NCBI GenBank assembly: GCA_965219575.1
Contig: OZ244779.1
Span: 2,060,769 to 2,124,768, forward strand
DNA: 64,000 nt
From: Candidatus Oxydemutatoraceae bacterium
GTDB lineage: Bacteria; Pseudomonadota; Gammaproteobacteria; Poriferisulfidales; Oxydemutatoraceae
Direction: 5' to 3'
The translations under genes were made by a program, and so were the position numbers. Position 1 is the first letter of the stretch. Each line of letters opens with the position of its first letter. Shown here one piece after another: positions 8,748 to 13,702 of the stretch. Under the pieces are notes generated by a model that was not told where the DNA came from, ran no database searches, and saw nothing but the letters and a program-made list of their open reading frames with translations.

Positions 8748-10136
8748 ATGAAACTTAAGAGTAACAAACTGTTAATTTCTCTCGTCGGTCTTGTGATGGC
8801 AGTAGTACCTTTTACTAATGCTTCCGCTGCGGGTCATGGCGAGACTTTTAACATATATGGTTGGCAAAACTGGTCGTATGAGTTCGTTGACAACGATACT
8901 CGCGATTATGACCGCTTGAGCAATAATGCTGCGAATATCGGATTCATGGCGCATATGGATACTGGTATTGAAGGCTTGCAAGTCGGTTTTCGTTGCGAAC
9001 AATTTACCTATTGGGGGCGCTTTAACGAATTCACCAACTGGTGTAACCGTAACTCCAAACTCAGCCTTCGCCATGAAACGATGGGTGAGATTATGGTCGG
9101 TCAATGGTTGCTTCCGTATAACGAGATCGTTGCCCAGTGGGTAGATCCCTTCTACGATGCCGGTGCCGATTCGCACACCAGCATTATGGGTAATATCGGT
9201 GGTAGCACACCGCGTTCCGGTGGTTGGCTGAGTTCATTGTTCTACAACGGTAGCTTTGACAATGCAGCTGATTTTACTTCAGCTTTTGGCACCTTAGCGT
9301 TTAACCGTCGTCAAGAAGGTATAGTCCAATATGTATGGCCTAATACTACGGCGATGGCAAGTCAAACTCGAGACGGTTTCCAGTTCCGCTTTGCAATCAC
9401 CTCCGGAGACGGGATTGAAGCTGCCGGTGTTGATACTCGGCGGACCCTCACTGGTAGAGAGATTGATCCCCGTATTATGTCCACCGGTGTTGCTTATCAA
9501 CACAATATGGGTAACAACCAAATTTGGGTTGCTGCCGCTTACGAGCAACACGAAGATGTCAGTGCGGCCAATCTTGGTGCTGGTACTGGCAGTAATGATA
9601 TCTATTGTGATGACTCGGACGACGAAGGCTATCGCCTAGCCGGTCGCTATAAATACGATTGGGGTAACGGTCAATCCACTTGGATCGCAGCGATGTATGA
9701 AGAACTGGAGTACGACGCAAGTTGCGACATGGTAACAATGCGTGATGCCGATGAAAATCCTACTGCAATTGGTAATTTTAATAATACTAATGCTCCCATT
9801 TGGTCCGGTGTTGAACGCGACGCATTTATGATTTCCGGCAAGCATGCCTTCGGCAACGGCATAGACTTCCGCTTCTCGTACATGGATGCAGACGAGTGGG
9901 ATTGTGATTCAGATGTTTGTACGGCAGCAGCCGAGCGAGACACCGATGCAGACGCAATGAATTTCGGTGTGTTCTACACGTTGCCGGCAGGTACCGAGCT
10001 GCGTGCCACCTATTCCGAGGTCAGCAACGAAGACAATGCTGGTTATGACTTCGGCATAAATGGTACCGTTCCTGCCACTACAGGCGGCCAAGACATAGAA
10101 ATGTTCGCCGTCGGTATAGTCCACTACTTCGACTAA
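8748..10136 (+). CDS. Outer-membrane porin paralogue 3, the currently expressed copy
   Basis: Full signal peptide MKLKSNKLLISLVGLVMAVVPFTNASA, strong RBS, C-terminal FAVGIVHYFD. Confidence 0.9.
   Translation: MKLKSNKLLISLVGLVMAVVPFTNASAAGHGETFNIYGWQNWSYEFVDNDTRDYDRLSNNAANIGFMAHMDTGIEGLQVGFRCEQFTYWGRFNEFTNWCNRNSKLSLRHETMGEIMVGQWLLPYNEIVAQWVDPFYDAGADSHTSIMGNIGGSTPRSGGWLSSLFYNGSFDNAADFTSAFGTLAFNRRQEGIVQYVWPNTTAMASQTRDGFQFRFAITSGDGIEAAGVDTRRTLTGREIDPRIMSTGVAYQHNMGNNQIWVAAAYEQHEDVSAANLGAGTGSNDIYCDDSDDEGYRLAGRYKYDWGNGQSTWIAAMYEELEYDASCDMVTMRDADENPTAIGNFNNTNAPIWSGVERDAFMISGKHAFGNGIDFRFSYMDADEWDCDSDVCTAAAERDTDADAMNFGVFYTLPAGTELRATYSEVSNEDNAGYDFGINGTVPATTGGQDIEMFAVGIVHYFD
8754..8770 (+). other. Putative recombination site C (expression site)
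   Basis: The 17-mer directly follows ATGAAA. Confidence 0.7.
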
Positions 10137-10229: not shown

Positions 10230-10534
10230 ATCTAGTGCATTAATAGCGGGGCTTTTGAAAAATTATTTCATAAAGTTGTAGGGACGGACTTCATTAAACT
10301 ACCGATTGACCTACCGGCTCAATCGTCGGCTTTATTCTGCCCTTACGGCTTGGTGGTTATTATAAATTCACTGCGCAAGCGGTTGCAGTTGTGCAAAAAC
10401 AGTAGGTACTTGGGGTTGTTGAAAAAGTATTTCATACAATGTAGGGACGGACTTGCATGATGCCTTATTAAAAATCAAGTCGTTTTATTCATTTTTTATC
10501 TCCTTTTGCAAGTATTGATTTAGGACACAGATGC

Positions 10535-11509
10535 TCAACAATAATTCGTGTCAAACGGTTGCTTGTGCGTGGTGACCCCGTAAATAATACGCGTGAGCTT
10601 ATGCGCGCAAGCAACAATAATCTGCTTTTTAGTTAACTCCGGACGGCGGCGACTTAATTGGTCGGCAAATGCACGGATGGTTGGGTTATGAACCCGTGCC
10701 GAGAGTGCTGCCATAAATAGCAGGGTGCGCAGGTCGGCATTGCCCTGTTTAGAGATGGGCGTGGGCGATGCGCAGTTGCCGGATTGCTTGTGCTTGGGCG
10801 TAATGCCGATATAGGCGGCGAGTTGCTTTGGATGGCGAAACGTATTATCATCCAGTACTGCACACAGGGCAGCCGCAGTTTGAGTTCCGATTCCAGGAAT
10901 GGAACACAGCAACTGGTGAAGCTGTGTGAGGTGCTCGTCTTGAGCGATAATTTTGTCCATTGAGACATTAATCTTATCGATCTGCTTGTCATGGTTCTTC
11001 AGGCTAGTGGCTGCCACCTTTTTTTGCTTCGCATCGCGCAGAGTTTTAGCGCAATTGCTTAACATCGTATGACACTTGACTAATTCCCTACGCCATTTCA
11101 GTGCGTCGCGCAAGGCTTGCACAGCCGATGAGGGCTTTTGCCAATCGTTTTCAGGCGGGATAGCAAATACGAAGCGTGCGATGATACGCGCATCCACTCG
11201 ATCGGTTTTACTGCGTATGCCGAGCGAGTCGCGGAATCTAGAGATCAGCACCGGTGCTGCAACGGTGATTGGATGCCCGGTATCATAGCCGGCCATGCAC
11301 AGGTCTAGTTCAAGACCGCCGGTCGCCTCAACACAGATGCGACACTGCTGTGCGCGGTGTTTGGTAGCCCAAGCTAACAACTGCTTAATGCCTTGGGCAT
11401 CACTACTAAATTGTTGTTCGGCAAAACTATTATCGGTGAATAGTATAGCCGCCTCTAAAGTGTCTTTAGAGACATCAACGCCAATCGTGACGGGTTGTTT
11501 GTTTTCCAT
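10535..11509 (-). CDS. IS110-family DEDD transposase/bridge recombinase
   Basis: IGVDVSK, VEATG, KTDRVDA, SIPGIG and the QSG catalytic Ser region. Confidence 0.93.
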   Translation of the reverse strand: MENKQPVTIGVDVSKDTLEAAILFTDNSFAEQQFSSDAQGIKQLLAWATKHRAQQCRICVEATGGLELDLCMAGYDTGHPITVAAPVLISRFRDSLGIRSKTDRVDARIIARFVFAIPPENDWQKPSSAVQALRDALKWRRELVKCHTMLSNCAKTLRDAKQKKVAATSLKNHDKQIDKINVSMDKIIAQDEHLTQLHQLLCSIPGIGTQTAAALCAVLDDNTFRHPKQLAAYIGITPKHKQSGNCASPTPISKQGNADLRTLLFMAALSARVHNPTIRAFADQLSRRRPELTKKQIIVACAHKLTRIIYGVTTHKQPFDTNYC

Positions 11510-11569
11510 AATAAATTACTCCATAAGGGTTGGTTAATGAATGAAATACTAGGTATCAAGCACAGTTTA

Positions 11570-11770
11570 GGAAAGTATGACTACGCCGCCCAAACAGATG
11601 AATACGAGATCTAAAGTCCCAAGCTGCCTTTCGAGCTCTATAGTCATAACGCCGGAGGAGTGCTTCTCATGCAAACAGGCTTTTAATGCCTCGTCCGTCC
11701 TACAGCGTGTCTCCTCCGACTTCCTAGGCACTGCATCTACCTAAGCGTTTATCTTATATCAAATAAGCCA
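11570..11770 (-). ncRNA. Putative IS110 bridge RNA
   Basis: A 5' stem-loop plus two large stem-loops (11651-11720, 11576-11648) whose internal loops match the target and donor junction sequences. Ends are approximate. Confidence 0.7.
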
Positions 11771-12877
11771 GGGTTTAATATATCTGTCCGCCCGTAGCGC
11801 GTTGGGCGGCACGATTTATACATTCATTCACCCGATTTATGGAAACCAAAACCATCCGGCGAAAGCGGTTGCGTTCATACAGAACGGCACTTTTTCAATA
11901 GCCCCGTGTATCTGCACAACATCTTACCGTTTATCTAATATCTGCTACCGTTCATCGAAATGTTTCCCCACACCCTAAATATTGGCTCACTCTATGAGTT
12001 TTAACCAAAACTTATAGGAGGTTTCATGAACAAAGAACAGAAAAAATATTTACCACTGACCAAAGACCGCGTCTTCAAACGATATTTCTCAACTAATAAA
12101 CAGGTACTGCTCTCGCTGATCAAGAGCTTTCTGCCGATCTCCGATAGTGCCTCGGATATGGTGATACTGAACCCCGACAAAGACAACACAGAGTCCGAGT
12201 CTGCAATGCAACCACAGAGTCAATCGGACGATCAGTTGCATCTGGAAGATAGTGTCATCCCACCGAACACGCCGGACGGCAAGCAAGTCGTACTAGACCT
12301 CAATGTCAAATTGAATAGTGGCGAGAATGTTAGCATAGAAATGCAGGTCTATCGTGAGAAACACTTTCTGGGTAGAATGTTGCTCTATTGGGCACAGTTG
12401 CATATGCATGTCGTAAATCGTGGACAAAAGTATAGCAAGATTAGTCCGACCTACTTGCTGGCATTCACCGATTTCACGGTATTTGGCGACACGGACGAAC
12501 ATATAGATCAACTAGAAATCAAATCGATTAAGCATCTGAATAAGAAACTCAAGATGGATTTAACGATAATGATAGTGGAACTAAACAAATTTAATAAGAG
12601 CCACTTAGAGCTAGTTGATATGGCCGATAGGTGGTGCTATATTATGAAACACGCAAAGGACTTGACACCCGAGCAGGTAGCGCATTTATCACAAGACGGA
12701 GAGATAAAGATGGCATTAGAGCATTTAGAGAAGGTATCGGAAGAGGAGATAGAACTGTGGGATTCTATAGCCCACGACAGATACAAGCTGGAATACAACT
12801 TGGAAAGGGAAGGACTGATAGAGGAAGGCATTGAACTGACGTTACCCCATTTTTATTACCATATACAAAGTTAGTTT

Positions 12878-13702
12878 TCATGCTATAGCCTCCGCAAATA
12901 CACTTGGGGGTTGATAACCCAATGCGCTGTGCGGACGCACTTCATTATAATCTATTCGCCAGGCTTCTATAATCTCTCTCGCCTCTTTTATTGAACGAAA
13001 CCAGAACTGGTTCAGACAACCGTCTCGGAACTTGCCGTTGAAACTTTCTACAAAGGCATTCTGGGTCGGTTTGCCGGGTTGGATAAAGTCCAATTCCACC
13101 TGCTGATCTCGGCTCCAGTGAAACATCGCCTTGCATCTAAACTCGGTGCCATTGTCGCAGACGATGCGTGCCGGCTTCACACCGAGCCATTCTATCAATT
13201 CGGATAGATAGTTTGCTACGCGTTGACCGGTGATCGAAACATCAACAATCTGTCCGACACATTCACGGCTGAAGTTATCTACTATGTTCAATACCCGAAA
13301 GCATCTGCCGTCGCTAAACTGGTCATGCACAAAGTCCATTGACCAGCACTCATTCACCGTTGCCGGTGTTTTCGGCACGCCACGCGGATGACACAGCTTC
13401 TTGCGCTTCTTGGTTCTCAATTCGAGCCTGAGCTTCTTATAAAGCCTATAGGTACGCTTCACATTGACGACCCGGCCTTCGCTCTTCAAAAGCGCATGCA
13501 ACATCTTATAGCCATAATGTGGATATTGCTTTGCCTTCTCCAATAACGCAACTTCCAGTTGACGATCTTTATCGGCTTGGTTGCCCTGATAGCGATATGC
13601 AGTGCGACTAATACTGGCAAGGGCACACGCAGTGCGTTCACTATGCCGACCCGCGCTCACTAGATCTTTGACAATCTGCTTGCGTTGCGCCGGCTTTACC
13701 AC
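12878..13702 (-). CDS. IS3 transposase OrfB (DDE integrase core)
   Basis: WSMDF, CDNGTEF and PGKPTQNAFVESFNG motifs. An AAAAAAG frameshift site lies at the orfA/orfB overlap. Confidence 0.92.
   Translation of the reverse strand: MVKPAQRKQIVKDLVSAGRHSERTACALASISRTAYRYQGNQADKDRQLEVALLEKAKQYPHYGYKMLHALLKSEGRVVNVKRTYRLYKKLRLELRTKKRKKLCHPRGVPKTPATVNECWSMDFVHDQFSDGRCFRVLNIVDNFSRECVGQIVDVSITGQRVANYLSELIEWLGVKPARIVCDNGTEFRCKAMFHWSRDQQVELDFIQPGKPTQNAFVESFNGKFRDGCLNQFWFRSIKEAREIIEAWRIDYNEVRPHSALGYQPPSVFAEAIA

What the first reader, a model, noticed from the sequence alone, without database searches (positions are those of the whole stretch)
10441..11793. IS110 bridge recombinase aimed at a REP, with guides and junction promoter visible
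Seen, on the minus strand: the target is GGGCGGA-CA-TGCAAG and the circle-junction donor is TAAGGCAT-CA-GATATA. The upstream non-coding end has a 5' hairpin and two larger stem-loops. The first (GTCGGAGGAG/CTCCTCCGGC) contains GGACGGAC (left target, one mismatch) and TTGCATG (reverse complement of core + right target). The second (TATGACTA/TAGTCATA) contains AAGGCAGC (left donor, one mismatch) and ATCTG (reverse complement of core + right donor). Circularisation creates TTGATT-17 bp-TATATT. Established: IS621-type IS110 elements use such a bridge RNA, target REPs and form a junction promoter; IS621 has a CT core. Inference: a new orthologue with a CA core that is potentially reprogrammable.
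Basis: partly seen in the sequence, partly recalled or inferred. Interest (0 to 1): 0.75.

Follow-up and report, generated by a model that had tools for sequence, protein, structure and literature searches.

The report
IS110 insertion sequence with bridge RNA
This is a small mobile DNA element whose own RNA appears to guide it into the loop of a repeated hairpin found about 200 times in the genome; it is a clear natural example of an already known mechanism.

Summary
Window 10458-11786 (minus strand) holds a 1,327-bp IS110-group element: a 275-nt left end, an intact 324-aa DEDD/Tnp recombinase, a 75-nt right end, and a CA dinucleotide at both junctions. The genome has 7 copies, all at the same position of a dispersed GC-rich hairpin repeat. 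The same repeat has 201 uninterrupted copies, which fixes the element's boundaries.

The left end folds into a 5' hairpin plus two stem-loops. All four in the right order occurred in 0 of 20,000 shuffles.

Natural covariation is the strongest evidence. Six bridge-RNA variants in 28 loci from four genomes of one genus have target and donor sequences that change with the guides. Two natural chimeras (RNA module of one lineage, recombinase of another) sit at the target that fits the RNA.

The circle junction would form TTGAYT-17-TATATT in 9 of 9 variants. The recombinase is about 31% identical to an IS621-family transposase, and the core is CA rather than CT.

Expression, circles and activity could not be tested. 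Verdict: a genuine bridge-RNA IS, a new member of a known kind, of moderate interest.

The parts
10458..11786 (-). Whole IS110-group element including the CA core at both junctions (1,325 bp plus one CA = 1,327 bp inserted)
   Evidence: 7 copies share these ends. 201 uninterrupted target sites carry a single CA.
11785..11786 (-). Left copy of the CA core (junction of left target and right donor)
10458..10459 (-). Right copy of the CA core (junction of left donor and right target)
11510..11784 (-). Left non-coding end (LE), 275 nt, which encodes the bridge RNA
11566..11770 (-). Predicted bridge RNA (ends approximate): 5' hairpin, closing helix, target-binding loop and donor-binding loop
   Evidence: Fold, consensus fold, pair counts, covariance model hits
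11753..11767 (-). 5' stem-loop CTTAT/ATAAG
11651..11720 (-). Target-binding loop: outer stem GTCGGAGGAG/CTCCTCCGGC, inner hairpin GGC-AUUAAAA-GCC
   Evidence: helices 2-4 have compensatory pairs
11693..11700 (-). Left target guide GGACGGAC. It equals the left target plus the first core base (GGGCGGAC) at 7 of 8 positions.
   Evidence: It changes with the left target in other variants.
11668..11675 (-). Right target guide TTTGCATG, the reverse complement of CA-TGCAA (7 of 7) plus a G:U wobble
   Evidence: The subfamily with TTAGCATG sits at CA-TGCTA.
11666..11667 (-). Candidate handshake bases of the target loop (AG). The A can pair with donor position 7 (T).
   Evidence: Position by analogy with IS621; sequence; weak
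11576..11648 (-). Donor-binding loop: outer stem TATGACTAT/GTAGTCATA, second stem, inner hairpin
   Evidence: helices 5-7
11623..11630 (-). Left donor guide AAGGCAGC. It equals the left donor plus the first core base (AAGGCATC) at 7 of 8 positions; the mismatch is at donor position 7.
   Evidence: The variant in L029/L032/L041 has AAGGCATC (8 of 8).
11595..11599 (-). Right donor guide ATCTG, the reverse complement of CA-GAT
   Evidence: ATC goes with GAT in 11 loci and ACC with GGT in 17 loci (28 of 28).
10535..11509 (-). Recombinase gene, 324 aa. DEDD RuvC-like and Tnp domains; D12, E61, D103, D106, S243.
10460..10534 (-). Right non-coding end (RE), 75 nt, carrying the left donor AAGGCAT
10473..10478 (-). 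-35-like hexamer TTGATT in the RE
   Evidence: TTGAYT in 9 of 9 variants
11777..11782 (-). -10-like hexamer TATATT in the LE, 17 nt from the -35 only after the ends are joined
   Evidence: No equivalent promoter was found in the integrated form.
11786..11793 (-). 5' arm of the target hairpin (GGGCGGAC), part of a dispersed repeat
10445..10452 (-). 3' arm of the target hairpin (GTCCGTCC here; GTCCGCCC in most copies)

Best explanation
This is an IS110-group insertion sequence of the IS621 type.

Proposed mechanism:
1. Its DEDD/serine recombinase is guided by a bridge RNA of about 200 nt encoded in the left end.
2. One internal loop pairs with both strands of the target, GGGCGGA-CA-TGCAA. That target is the 5' arm and loop of a GC-rich hairpin repeat.
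3. The other internal loop pairs with the joined ends of the element, AAGGCAT-CA-GAT.
4. Recombination at the shared CA dinucleotide inserts the circular form without a scar.
5. Joining the ends creates a sigma-70-type promoter that would transcribe the RNA.

Shown here: the anatomy, the boundaries, the site specificity, the complementarity, guide/target and guide/donor covariation, structural covariation, and homology of the protein.

Inferred: transcription, RNA-protein binding, circle formation and current activity.
For: Protein:
- Pfam PF01548 and PF02371.
- Full-length alignment to ISCro4 and IS621 transposases (E 7.9e-45 and 1.3e-43).
- D12, E61, D103, D106 and S243 lie in the columns of the IS621 catalytic residues.

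Boundaries and site:
- 7 of 7 copies lie between GGGCGGA-CA and CA-TG[CT][AT]AG-TCCG.
- 201 uninterrupted sites GGGCGGA-CA-N6-TCCGYCCC exist in the genome. Five are in the window, against 0 expected.

Guides:
- All four segments occur in order in the LE. This happened in 0 of 20,000 shuffles.

Covariation (28 loci, 6 RNA variants, 4 genomes):
- The right donor guide matches the right donor in 28 of 28 loci (ATC with GAT in 11, ACC with GGT in 17).
- The right target guide matches core+5 nt by Watson-Crick pairing in 20 of 26 loci that have a right junction. Three more match with one wobble, and 3 have one true mismatch.
- The left target guide changes from GGACGGAC to CGAGGGC or GAGAGGAT where the left target changes from GGGCGGA to AGAGGG or GGGAGGG.

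Within this genome:
- Both copies with RTG TTTGCATG sit at TGCAAG sites (39 of 201 empty sites).
- Of the 5 copies with TTAGCATG, 4 sit at TGCTAG (34 of 201) and 1 at TGTTAG (a wobble).

Chimeras:
- c3: the LE is 218/219 identical to c4, and the ORF is 937/970 identical to c1.
- L026: the LE is 224/225 identical to L018, and the ORF is 955/967 identical to L029.
- Both sit at the target that fits their RNA.

Structure:
- 94.3% of cells are paired and 14 of 42 pairs changed on both sides. Slid controls give 34-44% paired and 1-4 such pairs.

RNA family:
- The model R1 hits, full length and directly upstream of the transposase gene, 3 of 5 other distant IS110 elements searched besides IS621 (E 5.6e-9, 3.1e-6, 7.8e-4).

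Promoter:
- TTGAYT-17-TATATT across the joined ends in 9 of 9 variants.
Against: - No experimental or read-level evidence. No RNA run holds the stretch. The four runs laid are assembled contigs and show no circle junction.
- The RNA model did not reach significance on the IS621 locus (best E 0.39; a 33-nt match at the left end scored E 0.71). Rfam has no matching family.
- The single-sequence fold is only modestly better than shuffles (z = -1.95).
- The left target guide and left donor guide each carry one mismatch in this copy.
- The loci are related. Many agreeing loci descend from a few events, so 28 of 28 overstates independence. In addition, the right donor guide and the right donor lie about 190 nt apart on the same DNA.
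- The handshake positions fit only partly. In L019 the donor-loop bases do not fit.
Confidence: 0.88

Rival explanations
1. The recombinase alone recognises the hairpin repeat. The structured left end would then be a regulatory leader (for example, control of transposase translation or stability) and not a guide.
For: The target is a hairpin. For ISPpu10 a target stem-loop is reported to add specificity beyond base pairing (abstract). The guide matches in this copy are imperfect: 7 of 8 twice.
Against: Variation in the LE is concentrated in the four guide segments, while the stems are invariant within a lineage. Guides and sites change together. In two chimeras the site follows the RNA module and not the recombinase clade. 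All four guide matches in order occurred in 0 of 20,000 shuffles.
Confidence: 0.04
2. The copies are fossils. The bridge-RNA reading is right historically, but the element no longer moves in this genome.
For: No circle junction or excision allele was seen in the contigs laid. In the sister genome G033 the family is visibly decayed: 8 RNA-model hits but no transposase match at E <= 1e-40.
Against: All 7 copies have open frames of 326-336 aa without stops. Copies within a subfamily are 98-99.9% identical in the ORF part of the alignment. The place downstream of the orthologous porin gene in G036 has neither repeat nor IS.
Confidence: 0.1
3. The IS did not choose the repeat. A repeat that already carried an IS was multiplied, or the conserved flanks belong to a longer element.
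For: The flanks are conserved for about 70 nt on the left and about 45 nt on the right in most copies.
Against: The flanking repeat gave 227 left-flank and 122 right-flank matches without the IS. 201 uninterrupted hairpins have exactly one CA at the insertion point. Sequence beyond the repeat differs among the 7 copies. Relatives sit in variant repeats that fit their own guides.
Confidence: 0.02

Closest known systems
IS621 of Escherichia coli (IS110 group; bridge RNA; Durrant et al. 2024, PMC11208160; Hiraizumi et al. 2024, PMC11208158)
   Same: - Domain pair and catalytic residues.
- Long LE and short RE.
- 5' hairpin plus two stem-loops with internal loops.
[quoted passage not shown]
- 2-nt core at both ends.
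- Junction promoter.
- A repeated palindrome as target.
- The same local layout can be read in an IS621-family copy fetched here (L047): guide, small hairpin ending CCTG, TT, second guide.
   Different: - The protein is only 31% identical by tblastn.
- The core is CA, not CT.
- The donor is AAGGCAT-CA-GAT, against ACAGTAT-CT-TGT.
- The right target guide pairs with 7 nt plus a wobble.
- The RNA model built here does not detect the IS621 RNA.
ISCro4 / IS622 of Citrobacter rodentium (preprint 10.1101/2025.05.14.653916; PDB 9t56)
   Same: It is the best solved-structure match (E 7.9e-45, residues 8-321). It is the same kind of two-component system.
   Different: It has a CT core and is a close relative of IS621 (88% recombinase identity according to the preprint). 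The element here is a distant lineage.
ISPpu10 and ISPpu9 of Pseudomonas putida (IS110 family; REP or stem-loop targets)
   Same: Multiple copies are inserted at one position of a repeated intergenic palindrome. A target stem-loop lies next to the paired region (abstract; listing).
   Different: No sequence comparison was made here. In this element the crossover lies at the boundary between the 5' arm and the loop of the hairpin, so the guides cover one arm and the loop.
IS1111 group (RNA in the right end, long subterminal inverted repeats)
   Same: Same recombinase family.
   Different: Here the LE is 275 nt and the RE 75 nt, and the RNA is in the LE. The subterminal inverted repeat is short (TTTAATA / TATTAAA, read). 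That places the element in the IS110 group as described in PMC11208160.

Membership tests
IS110 family, IS110 group (IS621-type bridge recombinase system) | [quoted passage not shown] | tested here: met
   E 6.3e-20 and 1.1e-24, both above the curated cut-offs
IS110 family, IS110 group (IS621-type bridge recombinase system) | Catalytic D, E, D, D and the conserved serine | tested here: met
   D12, E61, D103, D106 and S243 lie in the IS621 catalytic motifs in the alignment. Residue list; positions.
IS110 family, IS110 group (IS621-type bridge recombinase system) | LE much longer than RE, with the non-coding RNA encoded in the LE | tested here: met
   LE 275 nt, RE 75 nt. The RNA model hits lie in the LE.
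IS110 family, IS110 group (IS621-type bridge recombinase system) | [quoted passage not shown] | tested here: met
   94.3% of cells paired and 14 of 42 pairs with compensatory change, against 1-4 in slid controls.
IS110 family, IS110 group (IS621-type bridge recombinase system) | First loop complementary to both strands of the target, core included | tested here: met
   GGACGGAC against GGGCGGAC (7 of 8). TTTGCATG against CA-TGCAA (7 of 7, plus a wobble)..
IS110 family, IS110 group (IS621-type bridge recombinase system) | Second loop complementary to both strands of the joined ends (donor) | tested here: met
   AAGGCAGC against AAGGCATC (7 of 8; the mismatch is at donor position 7, the position reported as mismatch-tolerant in IS621). 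ATCTG against CA-GAT (5 of 5)..
IS110 family, IS110 group (IS621-type bridge recombinase system) | Guides covary with target and donor across orthologues | tested here: met
   (28 loci, 6 variants); chimeras. The loci are related, so the independent events are few.
IS110 family, IS110 group (IS621-type bridge recombinase system) | Scarless insertion at a dinucleotide core present at both junctions | tested here: met
   CA at both ends and a single CA in 201 empty sites. The core is CA, whereas IS621 has CT.
IS110 family, IS110 group (IS621-type bridge recombinase system) | Sigma-70 promoter rebuilt across the RE-LE junction | tested here: met
   Consensus level only: TTGAYT-17-TATATT in 9 of 9 variants. 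Function was not tested.
IS110 family, IS110 group (IS621-type bridge recombinase system) | Sequence/structure similarity of the RNA to known bridge RNAs by covariance model | tested here: inconclusive
   No Rfam family matched. Model R1 hit 3 of 5 other distant IS110 left ends searched besides IS621 (E 5.6e-9 to 7.8e-4) but not IS621 (best E 0.39; LE match E 0.71).
IS110 family, IS110 group (IS621-type bridge recombinase system) | Handshake bases 3' of each top-strand guide pair with positions 6-7 of the other partner | tested here: inconclusive
   In the target loop the first base A can pair with donor T7 in all variants. The donor-loop UU fits GA only with a wobble, and L019 does not fit.
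IS110 family, IS110 group (IS621-type bridge recombinase system) | RNA is expressed, binds the recombinase and is required for recombination | not testable with these tools
   No RNA run holds the stretch. Only contigs could be laid.
REP (repetitive extragenic palindromic) elements | Short GC-rich imperfect palindrome present in hundreds of dispersed copies | tested here: met
   201 copies of GGGCGGA-CA-N6-TCCGYCCC. The 9-mer GGGCGGACA occurs 268 times against 13.2 expected. Extragenic location was not checked systematically.
REP (repetitive extragenic palindromic) elements | A cognate REP-associated Y1 transposase (RAYT, PF01797) in the genome | tested here: not met
   0 matches in a genome that is 98.9% complete. 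The same search rings in 6 of 14 control genomes. The target is therefore called REP-like.

The most novel reading that the evidence does not exclude
In this genus the bridge-RNA module behaves as an exchangeable cassette. It has been swapped by recombination between recombinase lineages that are only about 68-72% identical (c3, L026). One- or two-base changes in the right target guide divide one hairpin repeat family into separate landing sites for co-resident elements. Orphan target-loop-only copies (G000:C1:2280587-2280715 and a similar one in G036) could be trans-acting or domesticated half-bridge RNAs rather than debris.
Probability: 0.3. Interest if true: 0.55.

Novelty: new member of a known kind. 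Interest (0 to 1): 0.36.

Why it matters
Bridge recombinases are being developed as programmable genome-rearrangement tools, and most work rests on IS621/IS622, which have a CT core.

This element offers a distant natural orthologue (about 31% protein identity to an IS621-family transposase) with three useful properties:
- a CA core;
- a 7-nt right target guide;
- a built-in natural experiment, namely two co-resident subfamilies, two RNA/recombinase chimeras and about 200 graded target sites in one genome. This setting shows target choice following the RNA.

It could widen the usable core and sequence space and gives a ready cross-compatibility test. It does not change the known mechanism.

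Tried and rejected
- **Rfam scan** of 10300-11950 at E <= 10: only a chance hit (psRNA6, 13.8 bits against a gathering score of 60), and no bridge-RNA family.
- **Model R1 on the IS621 locus L047:** no significant match, so direct RNA homology to IS621 remains unshown.
- **Sequencing runs:** no RNA holder listed. The four runs laid (X1, X2, X3, X6) are Logan contigs. They show no joint from the right end back to the left end. The loose ends at 11785 read as uninterrupted repeat copies, which cannot be assigned to this locus because the flank is a repeat with roughly 100-fold higher summed depth. This says nothing for or against circles or expression.
- **Promoter scan of the integrated copy:** 1 site against 2.2 expected, overlapping the start codon, so it is not informative.
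- **Synteny test:** the left-flank gene (12026-12874, PDDEXK_2) is multi-copy in the relatives and useless for synteny. The porin side gave one orthologous place in G036 without repeat or IS.
- **Strand bias against replication direction:** all 7 copies are on the minus strand, but 5 lie in one replichore and 2 in the other by GC skew. I dropped this as an explanation.
- **Dropped or misread loci:** L044 and L046 (fragments) were dropped before the table. L035 and L038 have no right junction. In L031 the script took the outer of the two left junctions.
- **First guide tables:** the regular expressions failed and the register was off by one. One search replaces both.
- **Literature:** 'CA core' together with 'bridge RNA' gave 0 papers. 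That does not show that CA cores are unknown.
Full report
**What is there.** On the minus strand of window 10458-11786 lies a compact element.
- A CA dinucleotide (11786-11785).
- A 275-nt non-coding left end (11784-11510).
- An open reading frame of 324 aa (11509-10535).
- A 75-nt right end (10534-10460).
- A second CA (10459-10458).

The protein carries Pfam DEDD_Tnp_IS110 and Transposase_20 above their cut-offs. It aligns over residues 8-321 with the solved ISCro4 and IS621 transposases (E 7.9e-45 and 1.3e-43). D12, E61, D103, D106 and S243 sit in the motifs that hold the IS621 catalytic residues D11, E60, D102, D105 and S241 (residue list from passages of PMC11208158; positions). Identity to an annotated IS621-family copy is 31.3% by tblastn. 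The best plasmid-borne relative is 35.8% identical.

**Boundaries and target.**
- The genome (2.37 Mb, one contig) holds 7 full copies. Three are 96-100% identical to the window copy and four are 80% identical. There is also one 59-nt fragment.
- All 7 lie between ...GGGCGGA-CA and CA-TG[CT][AT]AG-TCCG....
- The conserved flanks belong to a dispersed repeat, not to the element. The left and right flanks gave 227 and 122 short-BLAST matches.
- The uninterrupted form GGGCGGA-CA-N6-TCCGYCCC occurs 201 times (98 on the plus strand, 103 on the minus), against 7 occupied sites.
- Five such sites lie in the window itself, where shuffles give none.
- The site is a hairpin: arms GGGCGGAC and GTCCGCCC with a 6-nt loop. 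The crossover dinucleotide lies at the junction of the 5' arm and the loop.
- No Y1 (RAYT) transposase was found in this 98.9%-complete genome. I therefore call the target REP-like rather than a REP in the strict sense.

- GGACGGAC (11700-11693) equals the left target plus the first core base at 7 of 8 positions.
- TTTGCATG (11675-11668) is the reverse complement of CA-TGCAA, plus a wobble.
- AAGGCAGC (11630-11623) equals the left donor plus C at 7 of 8 positions.
- ATCTG (11599-11595) is the reverse complement of CA-GAT.

[quoted passage not shown] The single left-donor mismatch falls at donor position 7, the position reported there as mismatch-tolerant. In 20,000 dinucleotide shuffles of the left end, all four matches co-occurred once and never in the right order and spacing.

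**Natural covariation, the main new evidence.** The two subfamilies in this genome differ at exactly the guide positions.

| Copies | Right target guide | Target occupied | Right donor guide | Left end |
|---|---|---|---|---|
| c1, c2 | TTTGCATG | TGCAAG | ..ATCTG | GATATA |
| c3-c7 | TTAGCATG | TGCTAG (4), TGTTAG (1, a G:T wobble) | ..ACCTG | GGTATA |

Among the empty sites, TGCAAG makes up 39 of 201 and TGCTAG 34 of 201. By my own arithmetic from these counts, such sorting would arise by chance about once in 10,000.

Relatives of the recombinase at E <= 1e-40 occur in 4 of 53 genomes searched in the order (G000 included), all in one genus. One of them is a named Candidatus Porisulfidus MAG. 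Of the 30 loci returned, 28 went into the table, and they show six RNA variants.
- The right donor guide fits the right donor in 28 of 28 loci.
- The right target guide fits core+5 by Watson-Crick pairs in 20 of the 26 loci with a right junction. Three more need one wobble, and 3 have one true mismatch.
- Where the left target is AGAGGG or GGGAGGG instead of GGGCGGA, the left target guide reads CGAGGGC or GAGAGGAT.

These loci are kin, so the number of independent changes is small.

**Chimeras.** A recombinase tree shows that RNA variants do not follow protein clades.
- Copy c3 has a left end 218/219 identical to c4, but an ORF 937/970 identical to c1 and only 748/970 identical to c4.
- G036 locus L026 has the left end of L018 (224/225) and the ORF of L029 (955/967).
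- In both, the occupied target fits the RNA module.

This amounts to a natural guide swap, with one observation each.

**Structure.**
- The single sequence folds into a 5' hairpin and two long stem-loops inside a closing helix (-68.3 kcal/mol, z = -1.95).
- Within the close relatives the stems are invariant, and variation is confined to the guide segments.
- A more diverged, decayed lineage in genome G033 supplies the missing variation.
- On a MAFFT alignment of 15 sequences, 94.3% of cells pair and 14 of 42 pairs changed on both sides. Slid controls give 34-44% paired and 1-4 such pairs. Most of these changes separate just two lineages.

**Relation to known RNAs.**
- Rfam has no matching family.
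- A covariance model of this RNA (R1) finds exactly the 7 copies plus one orphan in the own genome.
- It gives full-length hits directly upstream of the transposase gene in 3 of 5 other distant IS110 elements on plasmids (E 5.6e-9, 3.1e-6, 7.8e-4). A fourth scored E 0.29.
- It gives no significant hit on the IS621 locus.
- By eye, the IS621-family copy L047 has the same layout: guide, small hairpin ending CCTG, TT, second guide. Its core is CT.

**Promoter.** TTGATT in the right end and TATATT in the left end come to lie 17 nt apart only when the ends are joined. TTGAYT-17-TATATT holds in 9 of 9 variants. The integrated copy has no comparable site upstream of the RNA. This is a consensus match, not evidence of transcription.

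**What could not be shown.** No RNA run holds the stretch. The runs that hold it are assembled contigs and cannot show circles, starts or rare alleles. Activity is suggested only indirectly:
- 7 of 7 frames are open;
- copies within a subfamily are near-identical;
- the IS is absent downstream of the orthologous porin gene in G036.

**Comparison and novelty.** The element meets every sequence-level criterion of an IS621-type bridge recombinase system. It differs in its CA core, its donor sequence, a longer right target guide, and a protein about 31% identical to an IS621-family transposase. In the large protein collection only 18 clusters reach 45% identity or more, and the next is at 39%.

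The mechanism is known, so this is a new member of a known kind. Whether a CA core is new I cannot say. One text search found nothing, and the relevant supplementary catalogues were closed.

**Papers seen.**
- PMC11208160, PMC11208158 and 10.1101/2025.05.14.653916: passages only.
- 10.64898/2026.03.19.712850: outline and abstract.
- All other titles: search listing only.

Noticed in passing
outside the window: G000:C1:2280587-2280715 (+), locus L060 1501-1629: An orphan copy of the target-binding stem-loop (model R1, E 4.7e-6). It has the same outer stem but a different loop sequence, an extra inner hairpin, no donor loop and no transposase, and it is preceded by TATAAT. Similar weak hits occur in G036 (585547-585702, among others). 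It could be debris or a stand-alone RNA.
   Followed up: partly
L075-L080, L082 (genome G033, same genus): A diverged lineage of the same RNA (56-127 bits), with different loop sequences in each copy and no intact transposase. Two copies lie at contig ends. One transposase is cut after about 87 residues by a second copy, and another stops after about 51. Two left junctions read GCCAGAAA-CA beside a loop reading CCAGATAT, a non-REP target in a register shifted by one. L082 joins the first half of the RNA directly to a right end, giving a miniature derivative.
   Followed up: partly
L023 (G034) and L031 (G035): A full element is preceded by the first ~85 or ~62 nt of another copy's left end, joined at a CA inside that left end (after GGAGGAGA in the stem, and after GGTAGATG). 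This suggests recombination at pseudo-targets within the element itself.
   Followed up: no
whole genome G000: All 7 copies are on the minus strand, although the empty sites are split 98/103 between strands. The GC skew puts 5 copies in one replichore and 2 in the other, so replication direction does not explain it.
   Followed up: partly
window 12026-12874 (+) and 12878-13702 (-): The element is next to a PD-(D/E)XK nuclease-family transposase gene (PF12784) that gives 45-55 matches in each related genome. It is also next to an IS3-type integrase gene (rve, rve_3, HTH_21). This is a patch rich in mobile genes.
   Followed up: partly
window 8748-10136 (+): A 462-aa protein with a signal-peptide-like start and a beta-rich, porin-like sequence has no Pfam match. 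It is 85% identical in DNA to a gene in G036. I call it a porin from the look of the sequence only.
   Followed up: no
window 10280-10330 (-) and the genome at large: The hairpin is one module of a longer mosaic repeat. Left and right flank modules also occur separately and in tandem arrays (for example six left-flank hits spaced about 195 bp apart at 470107-471112).
   Followed up: no
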